32,000 bases of DNA from Balneolaceae bacterium (lineage in GTDB: Bacteria > Bacteroidota > Rhodothermia > Balneolales > Balneolaceae): assembly GCA_018401935.1 (NCBI GenBank), contig JAGYJQ010000011.1, positions 41,840 to 73,839 on the forward strand, written 5' to 3'. The notes under the pieces were generated by a model. That model did not search any database. It saw nothing but the letters and a program-made list of their open reading frames with translations, and was not told where the DNA came from. Shown here piece by piece: positions 1,206-31,459 of the stretch. Both the position numbers and the translations under genes were made by a program. Each line of letters begins with the position of its first letter. Within the stretch, counting starts at the first letter, position 1.

Positions 1206-2549
1206 TTACCCGGAATTGCGTTCTAAGAAATGAGTATTTCCCTGTACTCTATATAGACTTCGAGCGGTCTGAACGGTGCCTTTTCCATAGCGATTATTGA
1301 TACGATCAATGGCTTGATAACGCTGAGTATGTTCGGCTTCGTCCCGAAAAAATAGATTCATTTGACTGGTTTTATCCATGTCTTGAGTGCTTATCATTAG
1401 ACTGCGAATGGCCATTTTTCGCCGGCAAAAAGAGTCAATGAGCTCAGCTAATTCTCTCATGCACGCGTCATACACATATTTGGTTATGTGAGTAAAACTA
1501 GGAGTTACAAAGCGGAACCCTATGCTAGGATAGTCATTTTTGTCAAAACCAATATGCCCCCCAAAACTACTCGATCGTATGCCGTAGGCCCGCATTCGGT
1601 AGCAGATCATCTCGATTCCAATAGCCAATTCACCTTTAATAGCTTCTGGGTCGGTACTTCCTTCGGAAAAGGTATGCCCATAACTGACGCCCCACTTAGG
1701 TGAATATTCATGATTTTCTTCGAGTATTCGGCCTTGATCTTGGCCGGTAATCGTTTCAAAAAGCATACGCCCAAAATGGGGTCCAAATAGACGTACAAAG
1801 GTGTTGGGCTCATTGTGTTTTACCACATCTCGTATACGCTCATATCCTTCGGCTAGGAGATGTTCATAGCGCCTTCGCCCTACGCCCCATACTTCGTTGA
1901 GCGGTAAAGGGTGTATATATATTCGCTCATCTTCCTTGCTTAGAATAAGAGAAATACCGCGGGGCTTATCCAATCCGCTGGCTAGCTTAGCATAGGTTTT
2001 GGATCGAGCAACTCCAATAGAGCCATACAGTCCCGTGGTTTCCACGATGTCGCGTTGCAGTTGTTGTGCAAACGTCCGGATTTGAGGTTCTTCTTTGCCC
2101 AAAAGAAAACTTGCGTCCATAAAATACTCATCCATCGAGTAGCGCTCTATTTGGTGTGAGTAGCGATTCATAATATGATGCACCTGCGTTGATATAGCGG
2201 CATAGCTAGCGTAGTCTACCTGAAGCATGCATACGTAGGGGCATCGCTTGTAAGCCTCATAGGCACTCATTCCTGTTTTAATCCCCATCGAACGTGCTTC
2301 ATAAGAGGAGGTGGCTACAATACCTTTAACGGTTCCATTTTCTTTTCTCCAGCCACCCACAATAAGGGGGATTCCGTACATATTCTTTCGGAGTTGCTCT
2401 ACTTGCGCGTAAAAACAGGCAAAGTCGAAATGCACATATAAGCGGTCTTTTCGATGGCGATGTTGGTGTTCTGGGTATACCGTATTGTAGAGAGTAATAC
2501 GATGTACATCTTGTTCGGCTTGATATGAATAGTCATTTTTTTTTGGCAT
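1206..2549 (-). CDS. Y-family DNA polymerase (Pol IV/UmuC-like translesion polymerase) with a ~36-aa N-terminal extension
   Basis: The Y-family catalytic motifs are present: HFDFACFYAQVEQ (motif I Asp) and SMDEYFMD (the Asp-Glu of SxDEAFLD). The start is ATG at 2547-2549. Length is 447 aa. Confidence 0.85.
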   Translation of the reverse strand: MPKKNDYSYQAEQDVHRITLYNTVYPEHQHRHRKDRLYVHFDFACFYAQVEQLRKNMYGIPLIVGGWRKENGTVKGIVATSSYEARSMGIKTGMSAYEAYKRCPYVCMLQVDYASYAAISTQVHHIMNRYSHQIERYSMDEYFMDASFLLGKEEPQIRTFAQQLQRDIVETTGLYGSIGVARSKTYAKLASGLDKPRGISLILSKEDERIYIHPLPLNEVWGVGRRRYEHLLAEGYERIRDVVKHNEPNTFVRLFGPHFGRMLFETITGQDQGRILEENHEYSPKWGVSYGHTFSEGSTDPEAIKGELAIGIEMICYRMRAYGIRSSSFGGHIGFDKNDYPSIGFRFVTPSFTHITKYVYDACMRELAELIDSFCRRKMAIRSLMISTQDMDKTSQMNLFFRDEAEHTQRYQAIDRINNRYGKGTVQTARSLYRVQGNTHFLERNSG

Positions 2550-2595
2550 AAATTACTCCGCTATTGATATGTACAATATATGTGTGTAATTTAAA

Positions 2596-3258
2596 ATGAC
2601 CAAACAAATATTGGTCATGAACAACTTTCCCCTTGTAGAAATGCTCGCTTTTTTCCCCCGCTATTCAGATGTGCACACTTTTGATTGGAGGCCCCGCTAT
2701 GTACGGCAGGTACGTCATATTAGATCCTGTCACACTAAGACGCTGGGAGGGGTGCAATATTCATTTTTTAGTATTGTGACTCAACAAGGAGAAGCCATGG
2801 ATGTACGCTTTAATCATGATGAATTACTTTGGGACATAGTAGCGCTGCCTGGATCCGAGTTAGCCATCCATAGCAAAGATGGCTCTCATTTTGTTATTGA
2901 TCGAATACTGGTGCACCAACAGCGGCACAAGCATCAGCCTTCTTTGGCGCATCGTATGCGCCCTATCCGTTTTGAGTGGCTTCCTTACGCCCAGTGCGCG
3001 AGACAGAGCCCTATTGAACATGCCAAGATAGACCGCATGCATCCGTATCGTTTTTTAAAAGGAAAAAATAGTTCCTATCAGGTCTATCGGATAGAAACGC
3101 GTCACCTAGAAGATGTGATGGTCACCCGGCATTTCCATTATGTTGTTGAGGATACCGAGCGGCGGTTCTATCATGTAGTATACATATTGGATCAGGGAGA
3201 TTGGCGGTTTATACAAGAAGTAGATGAACAGTTCTTATTTCATCGGTCTAGTCCCTAA
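2596..3258 (+). CDS. Hypothetical His/Arg/aromatic-rich protein with a possible internal duplication
   Basis: A 220-aa ORF lies 46 bp from, and divergent to, the Y-family polymerase. I recognise no family motif. Two halves share F(D/E)WxP and hydrophobic-xxDxxxWxhh patterns (FDWRP...VRFNHDELLWDIV versus FEWLP...VVYILDQGDWRFI). Confidence 0.55.
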   Translation: MTKQILVMNNFPLVEMLAFFPRYSDVHTFDWRPRYVRQVRHIRSCHTKTLGGVQYSFFSIVTQQGEAMDVRFNHDELLWDIVALPGSELAIHSKDGSHFVIDRILVHQQRHKHQPSLAHRMRPIRFEWLPYAQCARQSPIEHAKIDRMHPYRFLKGKNSSYQVYRIETRHLEDVMVTRHFHYVVEDTERRFYHVVYILDQGDWRFIQEVDEQFLFHRSSP

Positions 3259-3278
3259 TAGCGGGCCAAACAGTATGA

Positions 3279-3995
3279 TTAGAATAACCGTAATTCGGGT
3301 TCGATAAGATGAGGCCCGTTGTTACGTACGTTCCCAACAGCAGGAGGAACGATATGGCTTTTAAGTCCGTCGTCGGGATAGGGGTCCAATAGGTAGTTCA
3401 AATCTTCTATATTCAATTGTGGATTTAACCAATGAGTCCATTCAGATGAATGTAAAAAGACAGGCATACGGTCATGAATGTCTTGCATGGTTGCATTGGG
3501 TCGAGTGGTCAAAATAGAAAACGAGTAAAGAGAGTCCAATGGGCTTAAGGGAGAATAAAAGCCCGCTGCAAAAAGAATAGAGTTATTGACCGCTTGTATA
3601 TAGTGAGGAGTTTTATTCCCTTTTGTGCCGGACCATTCAAAAAAACCGTTCATTGGGACAAGGCATCGCTGCGTAGATACGGATCGCCACATGGGTTTTT
3701 CGACTATCTGTTCGGACCGCGTGTTAATGGGTAGTAGGGGGCGGCTTCCTGCCTTCGGTTTCCACCCCATAAATCCCCAATGCATGGGTATCCGTATTAA
3801 TTGGGGAGTATCGGTAGCGGGTTGAAGGATAACCGGTACGATATGGCTGGGCGCTATATTATAAGAAGGTAGTGTATGAGCGGTTTTCTGCAGATGTTGT
3901 TTTCCAAAAACTCCGTCGGCTTCGTTTGGTTCCGAAGATCCAGTCAGTGTGTCTATGGTATTCAAGTCACTAAAAAGAGTGTATCGTCCGCACAT
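3279..3995 (-). CDS. yedK: SOS-response-associated peptidase (SRAP; YedK/HMCES family abasic-site processing protein)
   Basis: The protein begins MCGRYTLF, the hallmark SRAP N-terminus in which Cys2 is the catalytic nucleophile. I therefore place the start at ATG 3993-3995 rather than the upstream TTG at 4076 used by the ORF track. SRAP-like motifs follow (YNIAP, PMxxWG, FFEW). Confidence 0.9.
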   Translation of the reverse strand: MCGRYTLFSDLNTIDTLTGSSEPNEADGVFGKQHLQKTAHTLPSYNIAPSHIVPVILQPATDTPQLIRIPMHWGFMGWKPKAGSRPLLPINTRSEQIVEKPMWRSVSTQRCLVPMNGFFEWSGTKGNKTPHYIQAVNNSILFAAGFYSPLSPLDSLYSFSILTTRPNATMQDIHDRMPVFLHSSEWTHWLNPQLNIEDLNYLLDPYPDDGLKSHIVPPAVGNVRNNGPHLIEPELRLF

Positions 3996-4129
3996 AATAA
4001 CAGGAGGGTTATGATGTTTTTCTAGGATAAACTTTCGACGTCGTACCTTATAAATTATCGTTTTTATAGGGCGCAAAACCAGGGTGCAAAAAGGGCAGTA
4101 TTAACCTGAGGGAAAAGCGATGGTTACAT

Positions 4130-4798
4130 CTAATAGTAAATGCGAATAACGATTCGACGATTCGCCGCTCTGTTCTCTACAATATCTCGGCCAAATTCGT
4201 CTACATGGGGAAGTACAGGCTTGGTGTCGGCGTAGCCTGAGGCTTTTAAACGATCACTTTCCACCCCTTCACGAATAAAAAATTTAACCACTTCAGAGGC
4301 GCGGGCCACAGAAAGTTCCCAATTCGATGGAAATCGAGGGGTATTAATAGGAACATTATCGGTGTGACCTTCCACATCAACCCGAAATTGGTAATAACCT
4401 AAAACATTAAGCGCCTGGGTTACCTTGGTAATGATACGCTCACCTGAGGGGAGTAACACAGCCTCTCCAGAGTTGTAGAGAGAGCTACTGTTAAAGGATA
4501 ATACAATTCCATTTTTGTCTAATACTATCCCAACTAAGCCTTGATTACGTTCTTCAAGGAGTAGAGAGTCTAGGTCAATTTTTATTTCGGCTAAAGGAGT
4601 CTCGACTTTTTCTTTACCCGCTACATCCGAGCGCATACCTTGTTTCATCTGCTCCCAGAGGGCAATATCCGTTTGAGAAACAGCAATCAACATGGCAAAA
4701 AAGGCGAGCAACAAGGTAATCATGTCGCTATAGGTCAATAGCCACTCCTGATCCTCTTCTGCCTCGTCTAGTCCACCGTTTTGTTGTCTGCGTTTCAT
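4130..4798 (-). CDS. motB: MotB-family stator subunit: single TM with the conserved Asp, a plug-like helix, and an OmpA-like peptidoglycan-binding domain
   Basis: WLLTYSDMITLLLAFFAML carries the proton-binding Asp equivalent. The C-terminal OmpA-like domain reads VEGHTDNVPI...SNWELSVARASEVVKF...GYADTKPV. Confidence 0.85.
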   Translation of the reverse strand: MKRRQQNGGLDEAEEDQEWLLTYSDMITLLLAFFAMLIAVSQTDIALWEQMKQGMRSDVAGKEKVETPLAEIKIDLDSLLLEERNQGLVGIVLDKNGIVLSFNSSSLYNSGEAVLLPSGERIITKVTQALNVLGYYQFRVDVEGHTDNVPINTPRFPSNWELSVARASEVVKFFIREGVESDRLKASGYADTKPVLPHVDEFGRDIVENRAANRRIVIRIYY

Positions 4799-4832
4799 AC
4801 TATAGTCTAGTTAGTATCTAGGATTACAGGCT

Positions 4833-5648
4833 TTATTCAGCCTTCTGCTTTTTAAAATCTCGCTGTAAGTAGGTACTTAACTTATCCTGAATATAGAAAG
4901 AGGACTTCTTATCGTTAATCAAGATGATACCCTCAAGTAAAAAATATTCTCGGAATTTATTGATTTGAGCGGCATTTTTAATTTTCTCTGCTAACGGATA
5001 AAATACAAAGCGCGCAAAAATAATCCCGTATAGAGTAGTCATCAAGGCCGCCGCTAAACCAGGTCCCATGTTGGATGGATCATCCAGCTCGCCCAGCATG
5101 ACGATAAGTCCGAATAGCGTACCAAACATACCAAATGAAGGGGCAGCTCCACCCATGGCACGTAGAACGTCTACAATGACCATTTGGCGGAAATAGTTTT
5201 CCTCGATATGATTAGATCCAAATGTTTCTATATCGTCGCTTGAATAGTTGGTGCTGAGTAGAGAGAAAAGATATCCCGAAATTTCACCCCCATGCTCACT
5301 CTCCAATTTGTTCAACGCCCCTACACGGTCTTTTTTAATATCATCACTCCACTCAACCACAGTTTCAAAATCTTTTTGAAGTGTTTTTTTGGATGTTTTA
5401 GCTTGGCTAAACAAGTGAATAATACCGACTAATGCTTTGCCCACATACCGTGGTTGATAAGTAATTAACGAGGCTTGTAATACTCCACCTAGTACGATGA
5501 ATAAACTTGGAATATTTAAAAAAGGATTGCCGGCCAACGCGGGAATAGATTCAATAAAGGTGGTTACACCTATAGTTTCGGTGACACCAATTGCCAGCAT
5601 TCCGAAACAGAACAGTACTCCAATAACACTTCCGATTGAAATTTTCAT
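4833..5648 (-). CDS. motA: MotA/PomA-family stator subunit with 4-TM topology and a ~100-aa cytoplasmic loop
   Basis: Two N-terminal TM helices are followed by a charged loop, then TM3 (AAPSFGMFGTLFGLIVML) and TM4 (GPGLAAALMTTLYGIIFARFVFYPLAEKI). Both conserved MotA prolines are present. The gene lies directly upstream of motB. Confidence 0.85.
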   Translation of the reverse strand: MKISIGSVIGVLFCFGMLAIGVTETIGVTTFIESIPALAGNPFLNIPSLFIVLGGVLQASLITYQPRYVGKALVGIIHLFSQAKTSKKTLQKDFETVVEWSDDIKKDRVGALNKLESEHGGEISGYLFSLLSTNYSSDDIETFGSNHIEENYFRQMVIVDVLRAMGGAAPSFGMFGTLFGLIVMLGELDDPSNMGPGLAAALMTTLYGIIFARFVFYPLAEKIKNAAQINKFREYFLLEGIILINDKKSSFYIQDKLSTYLQRDFKKQKAE

Positions 5649-5651
5649 AAT

Positions 5652-6308
5652 CTATTGTCCTCCGCGGATCTCTTGAATTAAGGTTTCTAATTCAGGAATA
5701 CTTGGAATAGGAATATTTGGGTCCATTTGAACCGCTCGGTTCCAGTTAGCGCGTGCCGCCGTAATATTTTCAAGCATAAAGAAAATAGTACCTTTTAATG
5801 CATAGGCATCTGCCGTTTCCTGTACCTCAAGGGTTTTGTCAATAAACTCTAAGGATTGTCGATACTCTCCTAGGTAAAACAAATCTTGAGCTTTTCGATA
5901 ATTAGAAAGCAACGATTGAATATCTTTTGCTCGATTCTGAACCAAACTAGAGTCGATTACCATCACAGAATCTTTATCTGCTGGTCGCATCCCGCGTAAG
6001 TCCAGATAAAATTGTTCTTTTGAAGGGTCTAGTTTAATCTGAATATTTGAACTTTCATTAAGGTAGTTTACCGTAATCACTTCATTTGAAGGACTATCTT
6101 CCGTGGTGTTTGCAGAACTACGCTGGGTATTGGTATTTACCGTACGCCGATTGGCGTTCTCTAACTGGTTAGAAGAATTGCTTTGAACCGACTCAGGTGT
6201 TGCGCAACTCATGGTGAATGCAAGCTGAAAAGCTACCAATAAAGCTACTAGAGTTGTCTTAGTGCTTAGTGCAATATGCTTAGAATCGTATGACGGCATG
6301 GAATCCAA
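5652..6308 (-). CDS. Predicted lipoprotein with a Ser/Asn/Thr-rich linker and C-terminal TPR-like repeats
   Basis: A signal peptide ends in the lipobox-like AFTMSC. A low-complexity linker follows, then TPR-like helices (AQDLFYLGEYRQSLEFIDKTLE...AYALKGTIFFMLENITAARANWNRAVQMDPN). Its start overlaps the upstream gene by 20-29 nt (ATG at 6308 or 6299). Confidence 0.6.
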   Translation of the reverse strand: MDSMPSYDSKHIALSTKTTLVALLVAFQLAFTMSCATPESVQSNSSNQLENANRRTVNTNTQRSSANTTEDSPSNEVITVNYLNESSNIQIKLDPSKEQFYLDLRGMRPADKDSVMVIDSSLVQNRAKDIQSLLSNYRKAQDLFYLGEYRQSLEFIDKTLEVQETADAYALKGTIFFMLENITAARANWNRAVQMDPNIPIPSIPELETLIQEIRGGQ

Positions 6309-7473
6309 ACCCTGATTTATTATAGGTTAAGCGATCTTTATTGGACAGTTTAATAGTCTCACCCGCTAACATAAGATTACCAAATACTGAGAGACCTATA
6401 TTCTTGCTAAGATGAAATTGTAGACCAGGTTCAAGCATGAACACCTCTCCCTGTCTATTATTTCCCAATGGAAATTGCACGTTGGCCCTTGAGTAAAAGA
6501 CCACCCTATATTCATCGATATCGGGTACTTTTTCGGATATAGCTTGATGATAAATCAAACCCACATCAAACAGTGACATATCAAAAACAGTTATATCCCG
6601 GTTCGTAGAGCGTAATACATGGTAACCAGCGGTAAATCCAATGTAAGCTTTGTTTTGCAAATCCAAAGGTTGACGGTAGGAAATCGTCATGCTAAAATCG
6701 GTCATTGCTTGGCGTAAAAGGGTATCGGCTTGATGTACAAACGTATTGCCGCTACCCGTATCCGTACTATCCGAACCTACCCCTGCTCCTGCTCCTACAC
6801 CTGTAGTATCGTTTTGGATAGACCCATTGGCATATTGGTTTCTGTACCAGCTATCGGACCCTCTAGAGGTGACGCCAAAGGTAAGGATGAATTGCGATCC
6901 CTGATTTAATGTAGGTAGTACTACTGGAGGATTCGAGATGAACGACTTACTCCATACCACTTCTCTGGATTGAGGATTCATCACCCGAATCCCTATGACT
7001 AGCCCTTCGGGTTCTCTGCGTTGTAGGCTTAATTCAACAAGGCCTTGTACACCGTACTTGTAGGCAATCTCTTCAAGCATTTCTGGTGAAACATCGGCCA
7101 ATGAACGACCTTGCATATTTAAAATCTGGAGGGTAGAATCATTACCAACAATTTTCAATTTATCGTTAGGCTCTAATTCAGGTGGTGATAACACAGTAAG
7201 ACCAGCGTATTGCCGTAGTGAATACTCTATTTCAGCTCTGATGTATTCAATTTCTTCATTGGTGAAGCGTAGAGCGGAATAGTTAATTTTGTAAATAGCG
7301 ACCCGACGTACCGAAGCTGGAAAGTCACTAAGTTCAGGGTTTAAGCGCTCTTGGATTTTTTCAACCATGTAAGGATCTCCTTGATCATGGGTGAATAACT
7401 GAGCGAGTCCATTTTTTGGCAGACCTAAACTGCCTAAAAGGATCAGAGTTAAAAATATAAACGTCCGTTTCAT
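6280..7473 (-). CDS. Predicted outer-membrane protein: signal peptide, periplasmic alpha/beta domain, and C-terminal beta-barrel-like region ending in Phe
   Basis: The signal peptide is MKRTFIFLTLILLGSLGLPKNGLA. The N-terminal domain shows the pattern VAIYKINY...GVQGLVELSL...LVIGIRVMNPQSREVVWSKSF, which recalls FlgO/LpoB/CsgG-type periplasmic domains (eyeballed only). The C-terminal half has alternating hydrophobic strands and the terminal residues AVIRF typical of OM beta-barrels. Confidence 0.5.
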   Translation of the reverse strand: MKRTFIFLTLILLGSLGLPKNGLAQLFTHDQGDPYMVEKIQERLNPELSDFPASVRRVAIYKINYSALRFTNEEIEYIRAEIEYSLRQYAGLTVLSPPELEPNDKLKIVGNDSTLQILNMQGRSLADVSPEMLEEIAYKYGVQGLVELSLQRREPEGLVIGIRVMNPQSREVVWSKSFISNPPVVLPTLNQGSQFILTFGVTSRGSDSWYRNQYANGSIQNDTTGVGAGAGVGSDSTDTGSGNTFVHQADTLLRQAMTDFSMTISYRQPLDLQNKAYIGFTAGYHVLRSTNRDITVFDMSLFDVGLIYHQAISEKVPDIDEYRVVFYSRANVQFPLGNNRQGEVFMLEPGLQFHLSKNIGLSVFGNLMLAGETIKLSNKDRLTYNKSGFGFHAVIRF

Positions 7474-7476
7474 TAC

Positions 7477-9381
7477 TTAGGCTTCCGTTTTCATTTTTCG
7501 GCGAACCGCATAAAGAACGGCTTTTTGAGCGTCTTCAATATCTGCTTTTGAAGCATCTGAAGGGTTATCTACTTCTGACAAAATAAGTTGTTGTTCCCGT
7601 TTTGGGCGCACCTTCAATATCTTCTCACGTACAGCAGCGGGGGCTGTGCGGAGTGCAAGTATAAGAGTCTCTGTGGGGATTTCGTCCAAGGCTGATTGGA
7701 CAAATTCATTTTTGACTTTGGGTAAATCATCGAATCCGATAAAGAAGCGGCGAATTTTCTTAGCCAGTTCTAAATCTTGCTCTGCAATGGAGCGAACATA
7801 CGCATCCTGATCAGACAGTGGCATAGTCTCAATGGTGTTTAGAATAGATTCAATTCCATCAGCGGCCACATATTTCATATCTGAAACAGCGAGTGCTTTA
7901 TTTGAGAAATGGGAAGCCACTTTCTTGTACACAGAGATAGGGATACTGTTGATTTTACCCATTTTTAACAGGATAGAAATCCGTTTCTCATCATCCATTT
8001 TTTGTAGAATAACTCCGGCTCTTTCCCCGGCTATCTGCGCTAATAAAATAGAAACCATTTCATCCGACTCATCCTTCATTAAATGCAAGAGTTGCTGATC
8101 GGTTAATTGGTCCACAAAATCAAATAGGCTTGCACCTCCACCTTCCGCTTCGGTGGGCGCTTTATATTGGGTCAGACTCTTGCGGAAGCTTTCTACTTCA
8201 TCTATGCGCTCTTCCAAAGGAATACTTTCGGCATTGTCTAAGCCGTAGTTGAGCATCTCAAAGGTTGTGGCGTCCATGTGTGGTCGTAGAATTTGAATGA
8301 GTTTATCGTCCACACTCACAAAACTTCGTACAGCCTTAACTACCCCTTGCTCTTCGTCTTCTGTAATCCATTTACTCACCACATTGGCGACAATTTTTGG
8401 TTTACTAATGCAATTATTGGCAATGAAGGTCTTATTTTCTTCGAATCTGGCAAGTTCCTTGGCAGAAGGTCCTTTAGGTGCTTCGGGGTCTTTTTGCCCC
8501 CCTTGCATAGGCATATTAGGGATATTCATTCCCTCATAGCCAGGAGGATACATACCAGGTAAGGTTTCTTTTCTCTTGGGTTTGCGAAGTAGTGCAAAAA
8601 GTAAAGCGACTAAGAATAAAATTCCCAATCCCAAAATAACAAATAGAAGGTGTTGTGGGTTATTCCAATCTATGCCCAAAAACATCTTTTTTTCAGGTTC
8701 AGCAGTAACGGTCTGAATAACTGTGTCAGGAACAGCTGGTATAATTTCATTTTGAACTTCTTCCTCAGGCTCTTCTTCTACAATCGTTGTAGTATCAATC
8801 AATTGGGCTGGGCTGGGTGCAGTGGGCTTCTTAATATCTTGTTCAATGGCACGACTGTTTCGTGGAAATACTTTTTTACTTACGGATACAATATCACCCC
8901 GAAATTCATCCGCGTTAGCAATTAATGAGGCTGCTTCTTCTACGAAATCTACATCTTCGTCACTGTATGAGGTATCTACGAGTACCTTGATGTTCAGTCT
9001 AGTGAGTTGAAAACGTGCATCAAATCCAGAAGCCTTTAGGCTATCCTGCCCCGTAGGCCTATTCGATTGAAGATTGGGTGGGATAAAGGGTAGGCCTGGT
9101 AAGTTTTCAATCTTAATATCTTCCTGTGGTTGAACGACTTGATACCCTTTAGGAACTAAAATCCGCTCTAGTGTGGCCTTAACATCTACAATAAAAGTAC
9201 CCTCTCGGTAGTAATCTGAGAGCGCATTGTCTAAAACAACTTCGTAATATCGTTCGTATTTAGCCGCTTCTTCCTGCACATCTGCAGACGAATTCTGTCC
9301 CGGCACTGTTTGCCCGGTTACGATCATACTCTGAAGCGCAATAATGCCCGTAAGAGCAAGAATTTTAAGGTTTCCTGCCAT
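7477..9381 (-). CDS. Membrane-anchored FliF-like/FliG-like fusion protein (putative rotor)
   Basis: - Residues 1-24 are a hydrophobic signal peptide or TM1.
- Residues ~25-243 are periplasmic and end in QLTRLNIKVLVD...ADEFRGDIVSVSKKVF. This resembles the end of the FliF periplasmic ring region (RLSVAVVVD...RGDxLxVxxSPF).
- Residues 244-265 form a TM helix (nt 8587-8652) followed by RKPKRK, then a Pro/Gly/Met-rich linker.
- Residues ~305-634 are colinear by eye with full-length FliG. Examples are LFDFVDQLTDQQLLHLMKDE..VSILLAQI..ERAGVILQKMDDEKRISILLKMGKINSI and RRFFIGFDDLPKVKNEFVQSALDEIPTETLILALRTA..AVREKIL.
- The torque-helix-like C-terminus reads PKREQQLILSEVD...KADIEDAQKAVLYAVRR. Confidence 0.7.
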   Translation of the reverse strand: MAGNLKILALTGIIALQSMIVTGQTVPGQNSSADVQEEAAKYERYYEVVLDNALSDYYREGTFIVDVKATLERILVPKGYQVVQPQEDIKIENLPGLPFIPPNLQSNRPTGQDSLKASGFDARFQLTRLNIKVLVDTSYSDEDVDFVEEAASLIANADEFRGDIVSVSKKVFPRNSRAIEQDIKKPTAPSPAQLIDTTTIVEEEPEEEVQNEIIPAVPDTVIQTVTAEPEKKMFLGIDWNNPQHLLFVILGLGILFLVALLFALLRKPKRKETLPGMYPPGYEGMNIPNMPMQGGQKDPEAPKGPSAKELARFEENKTFIANNCISKPKIVANVVSKWITEDEEQGVVKAVRSFVSVDDKLIQILRPHMDATTFEMLNYGLDNAESIPLEERIDEVESFRKSLTQYKAPTEAEGGGASLFDFVDQLTDQQLLHLMKDESDEMVSILLAQIAGERAGVILQKMDDEKRISILLKMGKINSIPISVYKKVASHFSNKALAVSDMKYVAADGIESILNTIETMPLSDQDAYVRSIAEQDLELAKKIRRFFIGFDDLPKVKNEFVQSALDEIPTETLILALRTAPAAVREKILKVRPKREQQLILSEVDNPSDASKADIEDAQKAVLYAVRRKMKTEA

Positions 9382-9645
9382 GATTTAACCCCCGTAGAAG
9401 GTGTTTTATTTAAGCCTAAATGTAGATGATAATTACTACTTCGTTTAGTATGCGAAAATTTTTTGAGTTTTCCACATTTCTACTTAAAAATAAGTAGAAT
9501 AATAATCTAATGGTAATATTCTACAAAATAATTGGTAATTAGATATATAGGTAAGAATAAGTCTCTCATATTACCAGCCTCCATAAACTTATCCACAATG
9601 TGAACTACGTAAAAACACTTAGCTTGTACGTCTTGGTATTGGAGG
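9382..9645 (-). promoter_or_regulatory. AT-rich upstream region of the rotor-stator operon, carrying clustered short repeats and a palindrome
   Basis: - A 9-bp perfect inverted repeat ttctactta/taagtagaa lies at 9478-9486 and 9491-9499, with a 4-nt spacer.
- GTAGAA/TTCTAC recurs at 9394-9399, 9478-9483, 9494-9499 and 9519-9524.
- TGGTAAT occurs at 9511-9517 and 9533-9539 (22 bp apart), and inverted as ATTACCA at 9570-9576.
- I could not pin down a defined -35/-10 or -33/-7 promoter. Confidence 0.3.
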
Positions 9646-10077
9646 TCATCTAGAGGAAAAGGCCATTGCGTAAATTTTCATTTGTTTTACCATAGATGCC
9701 AAGCCATTAGCTCTAGTTGGAGAGAGATGTTCATTCATCCCAATCTCGGTGATGAAGGTAGGCTCTGTTTCAAGAATAGCGGTAGGAGTTTGCTGACTGT
9801 ACAGGCGTACCATCAATGCAACAAGTCCTTTAGTGATAGCAGCGTCACTATCTGCCTCGAAAATAATCTGCCCATTGGTGTATTCTGCATGTAGCCAAAC
9901 TTGACTTTGACAACCCTTAACTATATTGCTATCTATTTTTTTAGAGCTATCGAGAGGAGGGAGTTTCGAGCCAAGCTTAATAATATGCTTATACCGGTCA
10001 GTCCAATCCTCAAAAAGATTAAATTCTCGTACAATTCTATCTTGTGTGTCTTTAATACTTGCCTTGGGCTGCGACAT
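9646..10077 (-). CDS. sufE: SufE/CsdE-family cysteine desulfuration (sulfur acceptor) protein
   Basis: The conserved active-site motif KGCQSQVWL is present, and the 143-aa length is typical of SufE. Confidence 0.85.
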   Translation of the reverse strand: MSQPKASIKDTQDRIVREFNLFEDWTDRYKHIIKLGSKLPPLDSSKKIDSNIVKGCQSQVWLHAEYTNGQIIFEADSDAAITKGLVALMVRLYSQQTPTAILETEPTFITEIGMNEHLSPTRANGLASMVKQMKIYAMAFSSR

Positions 10078-10085
10078 ATCGACGC

Positions 10086-10964
10086 TTAAATTTCTTTTAA
10101 CTCTAACTTACCGACTGACTTTACAGTTGAAATTTTAGTACTTGTATCGTCTTTTACGGGACTGAATGACTGATAAATTGTTTGGTATTCCTCAGAGCCG
10201 GGAACTTTATACCGAAATAACTCGGAGACTGTTTTCCCTTCAAACGCACTGCTTAGCGCTTGGTTTACCCTAGTAAAATCATCCGGATGTATAACACTAT
10301 CCAATCCTTTTTCAAAAATATCATCTGAGCTGAATCCAGTAACTTCCTCAAAGGCTTCATTGATATATTTGCAATTAAACCCTGATTCATCCTTTGAAAA
10401 CTTGAGAATAAATTCTTCTCGTTGTTTTAGTAACGAACCAAAATCGGTATTGAAAATTGCCTTTGCTGTTTCTTTTTTCTCTGTAACATCCCGTTGATAA
10501 GACACCCAATGAGTAACCTCTCCCAGAGTATTCATAAGAGGATGAATATCCCACTGATTAATGAACTCTGAGCCGTCTTTACGATAGTTAATAGTGTGAC
10601 CAAAGAATGCCTGACCTTCTATCAATCGTCTTTTGAGCCGTTCCAAAATAGCTCGGTCAGTTTTTGGTCCTTGAAGTATTCGCGGTGTCTTACCTAATAC
10701 ATCTTGTTTTGTATACCCAGTCATTCTTGTAAAACCGTCATTTACGTATACAATTCTTGGCCCAGGCTTCTCCAGACTTAATTCGGTGATAATGATAGAA
10801 TCATAATCATTCCGAATCGCACTTTCGAGCAGATCCAACTGATGTTTTAGTATAGCAATTTGATCAGCTTGGGACTGAAAGGCATCCTCTAGCCTTGCTT
10901 GAGCTTCGGCGTCTTTGGCAAAATTCTTGATGTCGTCTAATTCAAATGGTTTATTGTGCTTCAT
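10086..10964 (-). CDS. Stand-alone sensor protein: N-terminal coiled coil, a LOV-like PAS domain lacking the photoactive Cys, and a second PAS domain
   Basis: The first PAS reads IVYVNDGFTRMTGYTKQDVLGKTPRILQGPKTD...INYRKDGSEFINQWDIHPL...VSYQRDVT. It is colinear with the LOV consensus (GRNCRFLQG...NYRKDG..FWN...Q.DVT) but has TPRILQG, with the Pro codon at 10683-10685. A second PAS lies at residues ~175-285. There is no output domain. Confidence 0.8.
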   Translation of the reverse strand: MKHNKPFELDDIKNFAKDAEAQARLEDAFQSQADQIAILKHQLDLLESAIRNDYDSIIITELSLEKPGPRIVYVNDGFTRMTGYTKQDVLGKTPRILQGPKTDRAILERLKRRLIEGQAFFGHTINYRKDGSEFINQWDIHPLMNTLGEVTHWVSYQRDVTEKKETAKAIFNTDFGSLLKQREEFILKFSKDESGFNCKYINEAFEEVTGFSSDDIFEKGLDSVIHPDDFTRVNQALSSAFEGKTVSELFRYKVPGSEEYQTIYQSFSPVKDDTSTKISTVKSVGKLELKEI

Positions 10965-21645: not shown

Positions 21646-21666
21646 GTCATTCATGTTATGTTCGTG

Positions 21667-22053
21667 TTATCGTTTACTGAATTGGAAACGTTTACGCGCT
21701 TTTGGTTGTCCGTACTTTTTACGCTCAACCATACGACTATCGCGGGTAAGAAGTCCATGCTCTTTAAGACGTGAATGCATGCCTTCTTTTTCACCATCAA
21801 TAGCACGTGCAAGAGCATGCTGTATAGCGCCAGCTTGTCCTGCCTTTCCACCACCTCGAACGGTAACCTTGATGTCGAATTGTCCATCCATTTCAGTAAT
21901 ATGCATTGGTGAAAGGGCGATATTACGCATAGCTTTTACCGGAAGATATTCTTCGATGGGTACGTTGTTAACGATAAATACACCTGTTCCTGGCTTAATG
22001 TATAAGCGGGCAGTAGAGGTTTTTCTTCGTCCTAGATAATTTGCTTGGGCCAT
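21667..22053 (-). CDS. rpsI: 30S ribosomal protein S9
   Basis: The 128-aa protein has GRRKTSTARLY near the N-terminus and the S9 C-terminal signature ARKRFQFSKR. Confidence 0.95.
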   Translation of the reverse strand: MAQANYLGRRKTSTARLYIKPGTGVFIVNNVPIEEYLPVKAMRNIALSPMHITEMDGQFDIKVTVRGGGKAGQAGAIQHALARAIDGEKEGMHSRLKEHGLLTRDSRMVERKKYGQPKARKRFQFSKR

Positions 22054-28342: not shown

Positions 28343-29581
28343 TTATTTGGTTGGCAAATTGCTCATGGTGAAGCGCTCGGCTAATTTTCTCGAGCTGGGA
28401 GGAATGGACAATAGAATTTGGATAAAGAGTTGTTTAAGCCATTGAAGCTTGGATTTTCTCCCCATTCTCATATTCCAGTGAGCACGCCGAGCTACCTCAG
28501 TTATAACCGAATCGAAATCGCTGGAATACGATGTAGCAGGGATTGGATTTTCTGAAGGGCTATATAGAAAGCCTTTTTCATGTAGTTTCTTGACATCTTT
28601 GGCCAGTTGCCATGCGCCCAACCATCCTAAATTCATTCCTTGTCCGCCTATAGGACTAACAACATGGGCAGCATCGCCCACTAAGAATAAACGATTTTTC
28701 TGTCTCAATGCGGCTCTATGGTGTTGTACTCCAAAGCTACTAATCATAGTGCAGTTACTTGAGTCGGGCATTTCTCCAACCCGCTTATGTATGGCCTCAC
28801 TAAGCCAGGCTGGTTGTGGATTGGATTGATAGTGATCTGTCTTAATAACCCAACGTCTTTTTTGATCGGCAATGGGGAAAGATTCTACCAGTCCTTCAGA
28901 AGTGATATATACAAAAGGTGGGGACTGGGGAGTATCTGGGTCTGGAAAGTCTCCCATTGTATAGGTGTCGGGATATGGGCGTCCATTGTACTGTATCGCA
29001 GCATAGGTTCTTAACGCGCTATTTTTACCGTCACAAGCAATCAGCATAGGGGTTTTATGCTCCTGAACCTTGGGGCTTGCTGGACTCAGTGGATCATGAA
29101 CCATTTGCGAGTGAACTACTACATGACCGCCATGATCCTGAAAACCTATAACCTCACAACCATACTGTATTTTATTGGGTCCAATGTCGGTAAAGGCTCT
29201 CTTTAATAGAGCTTCGGTTTCATTTTGAGGATGAATCAAAATATATGGATGCTTTTGTCCAGATAGCTGAGTACTCGAAAAATTAATCTCTCCAAGCTTT
29301 TTTCTTCCATTATGGGCAATCCCTTTGTCCACTCGAATGCCTTTTTTTAAAAACTCACTCAATAGTCCCAATTCTTCCAGCATATCTAAGCATGGCGGGT
29401 GAATGCCGAGTGAACGGGTATCGGAGATGGCCGCATTTCTTCTTTCCATTATGAAACATTCAATTCCTTTTAGATACAAAGATAACGCCTGAAATAAGCC
29501 TACTGGGCCTGCTCCAACGACTATGATCGGCGCATTATTTCCTGCCACTTCAGACTTAGGCACGGCCACGTTCTCCCTCAT
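28343..29581 (-). CDS. FAD-dependent aromatic-ring monooxygenase/hydroxylase (UbiH/PHBH class; SrsC-like)
   Basis: The GxGxxG dinucleotide fold reads IIVVGAGPVGLFQALSL, and the DG and GD motifs are present (LIACDGKNS, LVGDAAHVVSPIGGQGMNLG). I prefer the ATG at 29579-29581. The ORF-track start at 29617 would give a 62-nt overlap with the upstream gene. Confidence 0.8.
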   Translation of the reverse strand: MRENVAVPKSEVAGNNAPIIVVGAGPVGLFQALSLYLKGIECFIMERRNAAISDTRSLGIHPPCLDMLEELGLLSEFLKKGIRVDKGIAHNGRKKLGEINFSSTQLSGQKHPYILIHPQNETEALLKRAFTDIGPNKIQYGCEVIGFQDHGGHVVVHSQMVHDPLSPASPKVQEHKTPMLIACDGKNSALRTYAAIQYNGRPYPDTYTMGDFPDPDTPQSPPFVYITSEGLVESFPIADQKRRWVIKTDHYQSNPQPAWLSEAIHKRVGEMPDSSNCTMISSFGVQHHRAALRQKNRLFLVGDAAHVVSPIGGQGMNLGWLGAWQLAKDVKKLHEKGFLYSPSENPIPATSYSSDFDSVITEVARRAHWNMRMGRKSKLQWLKQLFIQILLSIPPSSRKLAERFTMSNLPTK

Positions 29582-30311: not shown

Positions 30312-30318
30312 AGGCTTT

Positions 30319-31440: not shown

Positions 31441-31459
31441 AGTACTACTACAATAAAGC

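What the first reader, a model, noticed from the sequence alone, without database searches (positions are those of the whole stretch)
4130..9381. Self-contained five-gene rotor-stator operon (FliF/FliG-like fusion, OM barrel, TPR lipoprotein, MotA, MotB) with no other flagellar genes nearby
**What the sequence shows**
- Five co-directional genes are joined by gaps of 3 nt, an overlap of 20-29 nt, 3 nt and 34 nt, so they are almost certainly one transcript.
- The first product combines a FliF-like periplasmic ring motif, a TM helix and a full-length FliG-like cytoplasmic region.
- The last two products are a genuine 4-TM MotA and a MotB with an OmpA-like domain. They are not the 3-TM ExbB/TolQ with ExbD/TolR.
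- Between them lie a predicted outer-membrane protein and a TPR lipoprotein.
- Nowhere in the 32 kb is there an export gate (FlhA/FlhB/FliPQR), ATPase, rod, hook, filament or FliM/FliN gene. Both flanks are housekeeping or unrelated genes (sufE, SRAP).

**What established knowledge adds**
- MotAB stators generate torque by acting on the FliG C-terminal helix.
- FliF-FliG fusions can be functional in Salmonella.

**Inference**
- This may be a minimal envelope-spanning rotary or energy-transducing machine that repurposes the flagellar rotor-stator interface for a non-flagellar task.
- That would be conceptually parallel to GldLM, Tol-Pal, AglRQS-Glt or ZorAB.
- I know of no described system with this gene set.
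Basis: partly seen in the sequence, partly recalled or inferred. Interest (0 to 1): 0.9.

Follow-up and report, generated by a model that had tools for sequence, protein, structure and literature searches.

The report
Flagellum-free FliG–MotAB rotor-stator operon
A marine Balneolaceae bacterium carries a five-gene operon encoding a fused FliF/FliG-type rotor, a MotAB ion-driven stator, an outer-membrane barrel and a TPR lipoprotein; the set is conserved as a unit across two phyla with no flagellar genes beside it, so it looks like an undescribed envelope machine built from flagellar motor parts.

Summary
Five co-directional genes lie on the minus strand with gaps of 3, -29/-20, 3 and 34 nt.

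- **G1:** a cleaved signal peptide, a FliF RBM3/collar-like periplasmic domain, one TM helix and a full-length FliG N/M/C region.
- **G2:** a TolB-N/LpoB-like periplasmic domain joined to an 8-stranded OmpA/OmpW-like barrel.
- **G3:** a lipoprotein with an invariant Cys, a disordered tether and a TPR domain.
- **G4/G5:** a PomA-like MotA with the Na+-type Thr triad, and a MotB with plug, invariant Asp and OmpA domain.

**Conservation.** All 53 related loci long enough to judge keep the same five genes in the same order. They come from Balneolaceae and Fibrobacteria (G1 about 30% identical). Flanks differ, no sixth gene is conserved, and dN is far below dS.

**Flagellar context.** No flagellar gene lies in the 32 kb window. 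The cluster is present in Gracilimonas tropica DSM 19535, which is described as non-motile and reported to lack flagellar-assembly genes.

**Literature.** I found no paper describing this system.

**Best reading.** PG-anchored stators turn a G1 ring that is coupled to the outer membrane through G2 and G3. Rotation and the biological output remain inferred.

The parts
7477..9381 (-). G1: 634-aa FliF(RBM3)-TM-FliG fusion, the candidate rotor subunit
   Evidence: ORF. Pfam FliG_C, FliG_M and FliG_N. PDB FliG alignment. AF2 model with pLDDT 69.5. Foldseek matches both full-length FliG and the FliF S-ring. More than 130 clusters at 50% identity share the ~600-aa architecture.
9313..9381 (-). G1 signal peptide (aa 1-23), predicted cleaved before the invariant Gln24 (the Bacteroidetes 'Q-rule', my knowledge)
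   Evidence: Hydrophobic helix at aa 3-23 in the model. Q24 is invariant in alignments A3 and A6. Cleavage itself is inferred.
8857..9312 (-). G1 periplasmic ring-building domain (aa 24-175): RBM3 plus a long beta-hairpin (collar-like), with the conserved LPGLP and RGDxxxVxxxxFP motifs
   Evidence: Strands 63-83, 114-135 and 164-169 and helices 33-55 and 141-154. Foldseek to FliF S-ring/RBM3 entries 8z5v, 7bk0, 6scn, 8z4g and 8zdt at E 1.6e-5 to 2e-4, and to SpoIIIAG at 0.056. Invariant P95, G96, P98, F146, G162, D163 and P173. YscJ_FliF_C in 9 of 17 members, sub-threshold.
8659..8856 (-). G1 disordered acidic linker (aa 176-241) between the periplasmic domain and the TM helix
   Evidence: pLDDT below 50 for aa 175-228. 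Length and sequence vary across the family.
8587..8658 (-). G1 single transmembrane helix (aa 242-265)
   Evidence: Helix 242-265 in the model. The hydrophobic segment is conserved in the alignment.
7480..8463 (-). G1 cytoplasmic FliG-like region (aa 307-634; N, M and C armadillo domains)
   Evidence: Foldseek aligns 310-317 columns to full-length Salmonella and Aquifex FliG. TIGR00207 fliG scores 87 bits, below its 226.7 cut-off.
7570..7602 (-). G1 torque-helix equivalent (aa 594-604, KREQQLILSEV). R595 corresponds to Salmonella FliG R281 and E603 to D289
   Evidence: Residue mapping from the alignment. R595 is R or K in 80 of 81 family members. E603 is acidic in 44 of 81 and position 605 in 53 of 81.
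6280..7473 (-). G2: 397-aa outer-membrane protein with a signal peptide, a TolB-N/LpoB-like periplasmic domain (aa ~33-180) and an 8-stranded beta-barrel (aa ~195-397) ending in Phe
   Evidence: No Pfam or PDB match by sequence. AF2 model with pLDDT 73.8. Foldseek: TolB 1.5e-5, LpoB C-domain 1.1e-4 (TMt 0.64), GNA1162; OmpA TM domain 1.4e-4, OmpW, NspA and Ail. The C-terminal F397 is nearly invariant.
5652..6308 (-). G3: lipoprotein with invariant Cys35 (codon 6204-6206), an S/N/T-rich disordered tether, a conserved beta region and a C-terminal TPR domain
   Evidence: TPR_1 and TPR_2. C35 is invariant in 15 orthologues from Balneolaceae and Fibrobacteria, and the TPR core residues are invariant.
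4833..5648 (-). G4: MotA/PomA-type stator A subunit (271 aa)
   Evidence: MotA_ExbB. MotP and PomA families. phmmer to Vibrio PomA 8bri at 2.3e-24 over aa 30-263. Equivalents of PomA P151, G154, T158, T186 and P199 are invariant in 55 orthologues, and T185 is kept in 45.
4130..4798 (-). G5: MotB-type stator B subunit (222 aa) with a plug, the channel Asp25 (codon 4724-4726) and an OmpA-like peptidoglycan-binding domain
   Evidence: MotB_plug and OmpA. MotD and MotS families. PDB MotB and PomB hits. D25 is invariant in 56 of 56.
9382..9645 (-). 264-bp AT-rich intergenic region upstream of G1, the probable promoter region of the operon
   Evidence: Sequence. It is the only sizeable gap in the cluster. 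The sigma-70 consensus scan was not above chance. This assignment is inferred.

Best explanation
The five genes encode a self-contained, ion-driven rotor-stator machine that spans the cell envelope and works independently of a flagellum.

**Stator (inferred from homology).** G4 and G5 form MotA5B2-type units. The OmpA domain of G5 fixes them to peptidoglycan. In the marine Balneolaceae they probably conduct Na+.

**Rotor (inferred).** G1 oligomerises through its FliF-RBM3/collar-like periplasmic domain. This gives a ring that carries a covalently attached FliG ring on the cytoplasmic face.

**Torque (inferred).** The MotA cytoplasmic domain pushes on the G1 FliG_C torque helix, whose R281-equivalent Arg is nearly invariant. 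The G1 ring therefore turns in the inner membrane.

**Coupling to the outer membrane (inferred).** G3 is an OM-tethered lipoprotein with a long flexible linker and a TPR domain. G2 is an 8-stranded OM barrel with a TolB-N/LpoB-like periplasmic domain. Together they connect the periplasmic ring to the outer membrane, so mechanical work is delivered to the periplasm or outer membrane rather than to a rod, hook and filament.

**What is shown.** Gene content, domain and fold assignments, retention of catalytic and pore residues, strict five-gene linkage across two phyla, and purifying selection.

**What is inferred.** Ring formation, rotation, the G1-G2-G3 contacts and the biological output.

**Most likely output, in order.** Envelope or division-associated outer-membrane maintenance (Tol-Pal-like), then movement of surface or OM components.
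For: **G1**
- It combines a FliF S-ring fold with full-length FliG.
- The R281-equivalent is R or K in 80 of 81 members. An MFXF-like hinge [FY][IV]TF is conserved.
- The FliM-binding EHPQ motif is not kept. This fits the absence of fliM and fliN from the window and from the flanks of every related locus.

**G4 and G5**
- They align over nearly full length with PomA and MotB structures.
- They score with flagellar stator families far above TolQ or ExbB.
- Pore residues are invariant, and MotB D25 is invariant in 56 of 56.
- The Na+ triad T158/T185/T186 described in PMC10374538 is present.

**G2 and G3**
- G2 has a TolB-N/LpoB-like domain plus an OmpA-like barrel.
- G3 has an invariant lipobox Cys, a tether and a TPR domain.

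**Conservation**
- The order G1-G2-G3-G4-G5 is identical in all 53 judgeable loci. Thirteen of these are Fibrobacteria, where G1 is about 30% and G2 about 20% identical.
- Flanks differ, and no sixth gene is shared across lineages.
- dN is 0.04-0.16 with dS saturated.

**Flagellar context**
- No flagellar genes lie in the window.
- The cluster is present in non-motile G. tropica DSM 19535 (L028; PMC5167729). That species is reported to lack flagellar-assembly genes (PMC9909488).
Against: - No experiment or multimer model shows a ring, rotation or any G1-G2-G3 contact.
- The AF2 models are of moderate confidence: pLDDT 69.5 with pTM 0.27 for G1, and 73.8 for G2.
- Only part of the canonical electrostatic interface is kept.
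  - On FliG, the K264 and R297 equivalents are not conserved, and D288/D289 are only about half acidic.
  - On MotA, the PomA D114 equivalent is an invariant Thr and the R232 equivalent is Phe. The R88 equivalent is basic only in Balneolaceae.
  - No clean compensatory charge pair emerged.
- The ~65-residue disordered linker between the periplasmic domain and the TM helix would transmit torque poorly.
- FliF homology is sub-threshold by sequence.
- The source genome could not be scanned for flagellar genes.
- Flagella are ancestral and common in Fibrobacterota (PMC4704652) and occur in some Balneolaceae. Co-existence with a true flagellum in some hosts is therefore possible.
Confidence: 0.55

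Rival explanations
1. It is a dispersed or accessory locus of a genuine flagellum. G1 would be an extra or alternative MS/C-ring component. G2 and G3 would be periplasmic scaffold parts, like Vibrio FlgT/MotX/MotY or Campylobacter PflA/PflB. G4/G5 would be a second stator set for a flagellum encoded elsewhere.
For: - All recognisable parts are flagellar in ancestry.
- TolB-N-like and TPR/Sel1-like proteins are known flagellar stator scaffolds (my knowledge of FlgT, MotX and PflAB).
- Flagella exist in Balneola vulgaris and in many Fibrobacterota.
- The source genome could not be scanned.
Against: - The module is never next to any flagellar gene in 53 loci.
- It is retained in G. tropica, which is reported non-motile and without flagellar-assembly genes.
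- G1 lacks FliF RBM1/RBM2 and the FliM-binding EHPQ motif. It could therefore neither house an export gate in the usual way nor bind a switch complex.
- A second FliF-type ring cannot simply be added to a flagellar basal body.
Confidence: 0.08
2. It is a non-rotary energy transducer or docking platform. The FliG region would only recruit and activate MotAB units. Ion flow would then be used for conformational force transduction or signalling to G2/G3, as in Tol-Pal or Ton, without sustained rotation of a G1 ring.
For: - Domain vocabulary parallels Tol-Pal: a 5:2 motor, a TolB-N-like domain, a TPR protein like CpoB and an OmpA-like PG binder.
- The Tol-Pal comparison draws on PMC12204202.
- A variant locus carries a MotB with a SPOR (septal PG-binding) domain (L061).
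- The flexible G1 linker is poorly suited to torque transmission.
- The canonical charge interface is incompletely conserved.
Against: - An RBM3/collar fold and a full FliG N/M/C are the parts that build rotating rings in the only known context.
- The torque-helix Arg and the hinge motif are conserved.
- The stator is of the flagellar PomA/MotP type, not the TolQ/ExbB type.
Confidence: 0.2
3. It is a decaying remnant of a lost flagellum with no current function.
For: - Balneolaceae are thought to have lost flagella (PMC9909488).
- 'Half motors' are common in non-motile genomes (PMC12199754).
Against: - All five ORFs are intact in more than 50 genomes from two phyla, and in the same order.
- dN is far below dS.
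- Catalytic residues are invariant.
- Two components, G2 and G3, are not canonical flagellar genes.
- The family has more than 130 clusters at 50% identity.
Confidence: 0.02
4. It is a Zorya-like anti-phage defence system built on a MotAB-type motor.
For: G5 matches ZorB models at 2.9e-19. This is expected for any MotB.
Against: - G4 does not match ZorA, and there are no ZorC/ZorD or other PADLOC components.
- G5 scores far higher with MotD and MotS, at 6.3e-47.
- The module sits in a stable housekeeping context and is vertically conserved, not in a defence island.
Confidence: 0.02

Closest known systems
Bacterial flagellar motor core (FliF MS-ring, FliG, MotAB/PomAB stator)
   Same: - RBM3/collar-type periplasmic ring-building fold.
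- FliG N/M/C armadillo domains, with the R281-equivalent Arg on the torque helix.
- A 4-TM MotA aligned over nearly full length with PomA.
- MotB with a plug, the channel Asp and an OmpA-like PG anchor.
- The Na+-type Thr triad.

   Different: - No export gate, ATPase, rod, hook, filament, FliM/FliN or FliL in the module or its flanks.
- FliF and FliG are one polypeptide.
- RBM1 and RBM2 are absent.
- There is a cleaved signal peptide and one TM helix instead of two.
- A ~65-residue disordered linker is present.
- The EHPQ FliM-binding motif is lost.
- Several rotor-stator charge residues are not conserved.
- Two non-flagellar partners, G2 and G3, are obligatorily linked.
Natural FliF-FliG fusion of Chlamydiaceae (Bergeron 2016, PMC4768692)
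   Same: - A natural fusion of a shortened FliF-type periplasmic RBM region, a TM helix and a FliG-like cytoplasmic domain.
- Found in a non-flagellated lineage.

   Different: - The chlamydial protein is ~330 aa. It keeps an RBM2-like domain plus one further RBM, has two TM helices and retains only the FliG middle domain.
- It is proposed to work with the injectisome, and no MotAB is linked.
- G1 has the RBM3/collar type and the complete FliG, including the torque domain.
- G1 is co-operonic with a stator.
Engineered FliF-FliG fusions of Salmonella and Vibrio (PMC6079021, PMC11481574)
   Same: They show that a covalent FliF-FliG chain can assemble MS/S-rings. PDB 8z4d/8z4g is such a fusion and is hit by G1.
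   Different: - They are laboratory constructs of full-length FliF, with all three RBMs, inside a flagellar system.
- G1 is a natural, shortened design without flagellar partners.
Tol-Pal system (TolQRA-TolB-Pal-CpoB)
   Same: - An inner-membrane 5:2 ion-driven motor.
- A TolB-N-fold domain.
- A TPR protein.
- An OmpA-like PG-binding domain.
- A five-to-six-gene envelope-spanning operon.
- A SPOR domain on the variant MotB hints at a septal location.
   Different: - The motor is of the MotAB/PomAB type, not TolQR.
- There is no TolA/TonB-like transducer, no TolB beta-propeller and no Pal lipoprotein.
- The partner of the motor is a FliG-type ring.
GldLM/PorLM motor of the type IX secretion/gliding system
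   Same: - A non-flagellar rotary 5:2 motor of the FCB group that delivers work to outer-membrane rings and lipoproteins.
- The host does have T9SS cargo: a Por_Secre_tail protein at 22735-25434.
   Different: - None of the five proteins gave a GldL/GldM/PorK/PorN hit among its Pfam matches at E <= 1.
- In T9SS the periplasmic GldM shaft transmits torque. Here a cytoplasmic FliG ring is the predicted target of the stator.
Vibrio/Campylobacter flagellar periplasmic scaffolds (FlgT, MotX/MotY, PflA/PflB) (my knowledge, not tested here)
   Same: They pair TolB-N-like folds (FlgT) and TPR/Sel1-like repeat proteins (MotX, PflA/B) with stators.
   Different: - Those proteins decorate a complete flagellar basal body.
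- G2 is an integral OM barrel and G3 a lipoprotein, and no basal body genes are linked.
- No sequence similarity was detected.

Membership tests
FliG (flagellar rotor/switch protein) | Three armadillo-type domains FliG_N, FliG_M and FliG_C | tested here: met
   Pfam FliG_C 2.8e-19, FliG_M 4.6e-8, FliG_N 1e-4. FliG_N is found in 15 of 17 family members. Foldseek aligns 310-317 columns to full-length FliG.
FliG (flagellar rotor/switch protein) | Charged torque-helix residues (E. coli/Salmonella K264, R281, D288, D289, R297) | tested here: inconclusive
   R281 maps to R595, which is R or K in 80 of 81 members. D289 maps to E603, acidic in 44 of 81. D288 maps to Ser. The K264 and R297 equivalents are not conserved.
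FliG (flagellar rotor/switch protein) | EHPQR motif that binds FliM | tested here: not met
   Salmonella EHPQ aligns to ESDE in G1. No fliM or fliN lies in the window or flanks.
FliG (flagellar rotor/switch protein) | Soluble ~330-aa protein scoring above the equivalog cut-off | tested here: not met
   G1 is a 634-aa membrane protein. TIGR00207 scores 87 bits against a cut-off of 226.7.
FliF (MS-ring protein) | RBM3 plus beta-collar fold that builds the S-ring | tested here: met
   The template-free AF2 model matches about 15 FliF S-ring/RBM3 entries at E 1.6e-5 to 2e-4, TMt 0.46-0.55. This is model-level evidence only.
FliF (MS-ring protein) | Sequence membership (Pfam YscJ_FliF / YscJ_FliF_C above gathering score) | tested here: not met
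   YscJ_FliF_C scores 13.4 bits against a cut-off of 23.8. Nine of 17 members hit it, best at 1.7e-4. A profile of the periplasmic domain finds no PDB FliF.
FliF (MS-ring protein) | RBM1 and RBM2 (SctJ-like) domains and two TM helices | tested here: not met
   Only one RBM-type domain lies between the signal peptide and the single TM helix. The N-terminal hydrophobic segment ends at an invariant Gln, typical of a cleaved signal peptide.
MotA/PomA flagellar stator A subunit | Four TM helices with a large TM2-TM3 cytoplasmic domain, and conserved pore Pro/Gly/Thr | tested here: met
   Aligned to PomA residues 14-244 at 2.3e-24. Equivalents of P151, G154, T158, T186 and P199 are invariant in 55 orthologues.
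MotA/PomA flagellar stator A subunit | Rotor-facing charges (PomA R88, E96, D114; PMC10374538) | tested here: inconclusive
   The R88 equivalent is K or R in all 41 Balneolaceae but Gln in most Fibrobacteria. The E96 equivalent is S/N/D in Balneolaceae and E/D in Fibrobacteria. The D114 equivalent is an invariant Thr.
MotA/PomA flagellar stator A subunit | Score above the NCBIfam equivalog cut-offs | tested here: not met
   Best hit is MotP at 115.8 bits against a cut-off of 394. PomA scores 109.4 against 341.
MotB/PomB stator B subunit | N-terminal TM helix with the channel Asp, a plug and a C-terminal OmpA-like PG-binding domain | tested here: met
   MotB_plug 1.4e-14 and OmpA 2.3e-13. D25 is invariant in 56 of 56. 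PDB MotB and PomB hits. Equivalog cut-offs are not reached: MotD scores 160 against 283.
Bacterial flagellum (whole system) | Type III export gate and ATPase, rod, hook, filament and FliM/FliN genes in the same genome | not testable with these tools
   These genes are absent from the 32-kb window and from ±10 kb of 53 related loci. The whole source genome could not be read. For G. tropica DSM 19535, the literature reports no flagellar-assembly genes and no motility.
Tol-Pal system | TolQ/TolR motor, TolA transducer, TolB beta-propeller and Pal lipoprotein | tested here: not met
   TolQ scores only 7e-4 against MotP at 1.7e-33. No TolA, beta-propeller or Pal is encoded. Only a TolB-N-like fold in G2 and a TPR protein resemble Tol-Pal parts.
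Zorya defence system | ZorA with a long cytoplasmic tail, ZorB, and ZorC/ZorD or other effectors | tested here: not met
   PADLOC matches only ZorB-type models to G5, at 2.9e-19. There is no ZorA, ZorC or ZorD.
T9SS/gliding motor (GldLM/PorLM with PorKN) | GldL/GldM-type motor proteins and PorK/PorN ring proteins | tested here: not met
   None of the five proteins gave a GldL/GldM/PorK/PorN hit among its Pfam matches at E <= 1.

The most novel reading that the evidence does not exclude
This may be the first free-standing rotary machine that uses the FliG-MotA torque interface outside a flagellum. A ring of FliF/FliG fusion subunits would be spun by Na+- or H+-driven stators. It would be wired to the outer membrane by a dedicated barrel protein and a tethered TPR lipoprotein, doing mechanical work on the envelope. 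Candidate outputs are OM/PG maintenance at division, or movement of surface components.

If so, the flagellar rotor-stator module can exist and be selected for without the type III export apparatus, rod or filament. [quoted passage not shown]
Probability: 0.4. Interest if true: 0.9.

Novelty: new variant of a known kind. Interest (0 to 1): 0.8.

Why it matters
**Why specialists would care**
- FliG and the MotAB/PomAB-type stator are known to work together only in the flagellum.
- Every other 5:2 motor system (Tol, Ton, Gld/Por, Agl, Zor) uses a different partner.
- A conserved, filament-less and export-less FliF/FliG-MotAB module with its own outer-membrane parts would therefore be a new class of envelope machine.

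**Evolutionary relevance**
- It would be a natural experiment on the modularity and evolution of the flagellar motor.
- It offers a concrete answer to why rotor genes persist in non-motile genomes, a question raised in PMC12199754.

**Tractability and practical consequences**
- The system is abundant in marine Balneolaceae; single protein clusters are seen on up to 73 contigs, including Tara samples.
- It occurs in a cultured strain, Gracilimonas tropica DSM 19535, so it can be tested.
- In genome annotation these genes can be miscounted as 'incomplete flagellar pathways' and so mislead motility predictions.

Tried and rejected
**Searches that failed or were uninformative**
- The search for related loci with the broad alignments A1 (81 sequences) and A2 (17) failed because no stretch was conserved enough. 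The 8-sequence A3 worked.
- A second homologous-protein run with profile A1 returned the same Balneolaceae set. It did not reach distant members.
- Sequence searches for G2 found nothing: Pfam on 18 orthologues and a PDB profile search. Only the predicted fold was informative.
- A profile of the G1 periplasmic domain against PDB gave no hit. FliF homology therefore rests on the fold and on sub-threshold Pfam hits.
- The listing of cluster members on 10 distant representatives gave no organism names. The taxonomic range beyond Balneolaceae, Fibrobacteria and one Chitinophagales MAG is unknown.
- The two 331-aa representatives that looked like canonical FliG are not canonical FliG. P0225 lacks a start Met and is a fragment of the fusion family. 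P0243 starts with Met but resembles the family's cytoplasmic region. This blocked a route to testing for a separate fliG.
- The supplement search of the flagellar-motility atlas (PMC11095265) had no Balneolaceae entries.

**Tests with negative results**
- I looked for compensatory charge swaps between the MotA cytoplasmic helices and the G1 torque helix across lineages. Both faces stay charged and differ between Balneolaceae and Fibrobacteria, but group D and the L061 variant break any simple pairing. No co-evolution claim is made.
- Sigma-70 promoter and terminator scans were not above shuffled expectation. FCB-group promoters differ, so this is uninformative.

**Explanations rejected**
- Zorya.
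- A decaying relic.
- A conserved sixth gene.

**Literature**
- Seven full-text searches found no description of this gene set.

Full report
**1. The observation**

The ORF table shows five co-directional minus-strand genes at exactly the reported positions.

| Gene | Coordinates | Length |
|---|---|---|
| G1 | 9381..7477 | 634 aa |
| G2 | 7473..6280 | 397 aa |
| G3 | 6308..5652 | 218 aa |
| G4 | 5648..4833 | 271 aa |
| G5 | 4798..4130 | 222 aa |

- The junctions are 3 nt, a 29-nt overlap (20 nt from the next ATG), 3 nt and 34 nt.
- A 264-bp AT-rich gap precedes G1.
- Pfam and NCBIfam confirm FliG_C/M/N in G1, TPR in G3, MotA_ExbB in G4, and MotB_plug plus OmpA in G5.
- G4 and G5 score with the flagellar stator families MotP, PomA, MotD and MotS (1e-31 to 1e-47). 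They score about 30 orders of magnitude better than with TolQ or ExbB.
- The other 20 large ORFs of the window are housekeeping or unrelated, and none is flagellar.
- The organism is a Balneolaceae bacterium (phylum Balneolota, FCB group).

**2. Anatomy of the parts**

*G1*
- phmmer aligns aa 402-632 to Salmonella FliG residues 92-318 at 3.2e-16.
- From that alignment, FliG R281 corresponds to R595 and D289 to E603. The MFXF hinge corresponds to FIGF. The FliM-binding EHPQ corresponds to ESDE and is not kept.
- In an 81-member family alignment, R595 is R or K in 80. Acidic residues occupy 603 in 44 members and 605 in 53. The hinge is [FY][IV]TF. The K264 and R297 equivalents are not conserved.
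- A template-free AF2 model (36-sequence MSA, pLDDT 69.5) shows these elements in order:
  - a signal-peptide helix;
  - an alpha/beta domain with two ~20-residue strands;
  - a disordered acidic linker (aa 175-228);
  - one TM helix (242-265);
  - a disordered stretch;
  - an all-helical region (307-633).
- Foldseek against PDB matches the helical region to full-length FliG: 8wiw at 2.4e-10 and 3hjl at 5e-8, over 310-317 columns.
- It independently matches the periplasmic domain to about 15 FliF S-ring/RBM3-collar structures at 1.6e-5 to 2e-4 (TMt about 0.5), and more weakly to SpoIIIAG.
- By sequence, the FliF link is only sub-threshold. YscJ_FliF_C hits 9 of 17 members, best at 1.7e-4, and there is no PDB hit by profile.
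- The conserved C-terminal motif RGDxxxVxxxxFP resembles the end of FliF RBM3 (my recollection of FliF sequences).
- The invariant Gln24 after the hydrophobic N-terminus fits the Bacteroidetes rule of Gln at +1 of signal-peptidase-I sites (my knowledge).
- Mature G1 is therefore probably a single-pass protein, unlike the two-TM FliF.

*G2*
- No Pfam or PDB relative is detectable by sequence.
- The AF2 model (44-sequence MSA, pLDDT 73.8) has an N-terminal alpha/beta domain and eight long C-terminal strands ending in Phe.
- Foldseek assigns the N-domain to the TolB-N / LpoB-C / GNA1162 fold. LpoB scores 1.1e-4 with TMt 0.64.
- It assigns the C-domain to 8-stranded barrels: the OmpA TM domain, OmpW, NspA and Ail.
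- The most conserved sequence stretch (SPPELEPNDKLKIVGxDSTLQIxN, aa 96-119) is modelled with low confidence. It may be a partner-binding loop (inference).

*G3*
- An invariant Cys35 follows a hydrophobic leader.
- Next come an S/N/T-rich disordered segment, a conserved beta region and a TPR domain.
- This is the layout of a lipoprotein on a flexible tether.

*G4 and G5*
- G4 aligns to Vibrio PomA over residues 14-244.
- Across 55 orthologues, the equivalents of PomA P151, G154, T158, T186 and P199 are invariant.
- T185 and M155 are kept in 45. The other 10 have Ala and Leu.
- PMC10374538 reports that T158/T185/T186 mark Na+-driven stators and that T158 and T185 are Ala in H+ stators. The marine Balneolaceae units are therefore predicted to be Na+-coupled (inference).
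- MotB D25 is invariant in 56 of 56.
- Rotor-facing charges are only partly retained. The R88 equivalent is basic in Balneolaceae only, and the D114 equivalent is an invariant Thr.

**3. Conservation and context**

- An exhaustive HMMER search of 1.84 billion representatives found 111 proteins at E ≤ 1e-30. Almost all of the best 150 are ~600-aa proteins with the same architecture, down to about 21% identity.
- A scan of one genome per species returned 63 loci:
  - Balneolaceae, including Gracilimonas tropica DSM 19535 and Balneola sp. EhC07;
  - about 20 Fibrobacteria MAGs;
  - one Chitinophagales MAG.
- Searching all ORFs of those loci with the five window proteins gave G1-G2-G3-G4-G5 in the same order in every locus whose contig is long enough. 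That is 53 distinct loci, 13 of them Fibrobacteria, where G1 is about 30% and G2 about 20% identical.
- An independent metagenomic contig shows the same.
- Flanking genes differ between lineages, and no additional gene family is shared across them. Only a PAS protein and SufE upstream are syntenic within two Balneolaceae subgroups.
- Between the window and an 89%-identical relative, dN is 0.04-0.16 while dS is saturated.
- Two loci show a variant module: a 994-aa CarboxypepD_reg/TPR protein, then G1, a small TPR protein, MotA, and a 578-aa MotB carrying a SPOR domain (L061).

**4. Flagellar or not**

- I could not read whole genomes, so I could not test this directly.
- Indirect evidence comes from two papers:
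  - G. tropica is listed with motility 'None' (PMC5167729).
  - A KEGG-based comparison states that G. tropica DSM 19535, Balneola, Fodinibius, Rhodohalobacter and Halalkalibaculum lack the flagellar-assembly genes found in the former Aliifodinibius species (PMC9909488).
- G. tropica nevertheless carries the intact module (L028).
- On the other side, flagella are ancestral and common in Fibrobacterota (PMC4704652). In some hosts the module may therefore coexist with a flagellum.
- The stator's affinity to the flagellar PomA/MotP type suggests descent from flagellar parts rather than the reverse (inference, using the FIT/GIT framework of PMC12505986).

**5. How it most likely works**

- *Shown:* the parts list, the folds, the retained ion-path residues, the obligatory linkage and purifying selection.
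- *Inferred:* MotA5B2 units anchored to peptidoglycan act on the FliG_C domains of a ring of G1 subunits. That ring is assembled through the RBM3/collar-like domain and turns in the inner membrane.
- *Inferred:* the periplasmic ring is engaged by G3 (OM-tethered TPR lipoprotein) and G2 (OM barrel with a TolB-N/LpoB-like domain). Work is thus delivered to the periplasm or outer membrane.
- With no FliM/FliN-binding motif, no switch is expected.
- The biological output is unknown. Three observations make an envelope or division-associated role my first guess: the Tol-Pal-like domain vocabulary, the SPOR domain in the variant, and the housekeeping context. Movement of surface components is second.
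- Weak points:
  - no multimer model or experiment;
  - incomplete conservation of the canonical charge interface;
  - the long flexible linker in G1;
  - moderate model confidence.

**6. Comparison with what is known**

- The closest system is the flagellar motor core. The module fails several membership tests:
  - equivalog cut-offs;
  - the EHPQR motif;
  - RBM1 and RBM2;
  - two TM helices;
  - presence of export, rod and filament genes.
- The closest natural fusion is the ~330-aa chlamydial FliF-FliG (PMC4768692). It has different RBMs, only FliG_M and no stator.
- Engineered FliF-FliG fusions show that such chains can form rings.
- Tol-Pal, GldLM/T9SS and Zorya share the 5:2-motor principle but not the parts.
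- Seven full-text searches found no description of this gene set.
- One paper notes in general terms that rotor proteins in non-motile genomes might have other functions (PMC12199754).

**7. Verdict**

- I class the module as a new variant of a known kind: a flagellar-type rotor-stator used without a flagellum and with dedicated outer-membrane partners.
- Interest is 0.8.
- The decisive work is whole-genome flagellar gene scans of the carriers, multimer modelling, and genetics plus cryo-ET in Gracilimonas tropica.

Noticed in passing
window 22735-25434 (+): An 899-aa protein with CotH kinase, Lamin-tail and Por_Secre_tail (T9SS C-terminal sorting) domains. The organism therefore has a type IX secretion system in addition to the module studied.
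   Followed up: no
window 28343-31993 (-): A run of a type III polyketide synthase (chalcone/stilbene synthase-like), a SAM methyltransferase, a FAD-binding monooxygenase and a MatE transporter fragment. It may be an alkylresorcinol or aryl-polyene-type lipid cluster.
   Followed up: no
window 9646-10964 (-); 18 loci of Balneolaceae groups A and B: A PAS-only 292-aa protein and SufE sit immediately upstream of the operon in 18 loci of two Balneolaceae subgroups. They are not upstream in Gracilimonas, Balneola or Fibrobacteria loci. The PAS protein could be a lineage-specific regulator.
   Followed up: partly
L061 6940-14903 (Balneola sp. OZ254085.1); L063 (Chitinophagales MAG): A variant module lacks G2. 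It comprises a 994-aa CarboxypepD_reg/TPR protein, a G1 homologue (25% identity), a small TPR protein, MotA, and a 578-aa MotB with a SPOR septal-peptidoglycan-binding domain.
   Followed up: partly
protein P0244 (754 aa): This representative has the G1 architecture fused at its C-terminus to a lipoprotein-like leader and a G3-like TPR domain. It is either a natural G1-G3 fusion or a read-through or frameshift. A real fusion would support a direct G1-G3 functional link.
   Followed up: no
window 4833-5648 (G4) and orthologues: The Na+-type signature (PomA M155, T158, T185, T186) is complete in 45 of 55 orthologues. Ten have Leu155 and Ala185, the H+-like states. I did not tabulate which loci these are, although MotA is otherwise most divergent in the Fibrobacteria. 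This suggests that ion coupling differs within the family.
   Followed up: partly
window 7093-7188 (G2 aa 96-127): The most conserved sequence block of G2 (SPPELEPNDKLKIVGxDSTLQIxNxxGRSLAD) is the least confidently modelled part of its periplasmic domain, with pLDDT 29-47. It is shortened by 9 residues in Fibrobacteria. It may be a partner-binding loop.
   Followed up: no
window 1206-4076: A Y-family (ImpB/UmuC-type) polymerase, a 220-aa ORF with no Pfam match (2596-3258, +) and an SRAP (SOS-response-associated peptidase) lie together just downstream of the operon. This may be a DNA-damage-tolerance cluster.
   Followed up: no
window 21653-22053: Two 128-aa ORFs overlap almost completely on opposite strands, next to ribosomal protein L13. 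One is presumably rpsI and the other a shadow ORF.
   Followed up: no
PMC9909488: The paper reads 'incomplete flagellar pathways' in non-motile Balneolaceae as relics of lost motility. Modules like this one (FliG, MotA and MotB hits) could contribute to such KEGG calls in some genomes. In that paper, however, the former Aliifodinibius genomes carry many true flagellar KOs.
   Followed up: partly
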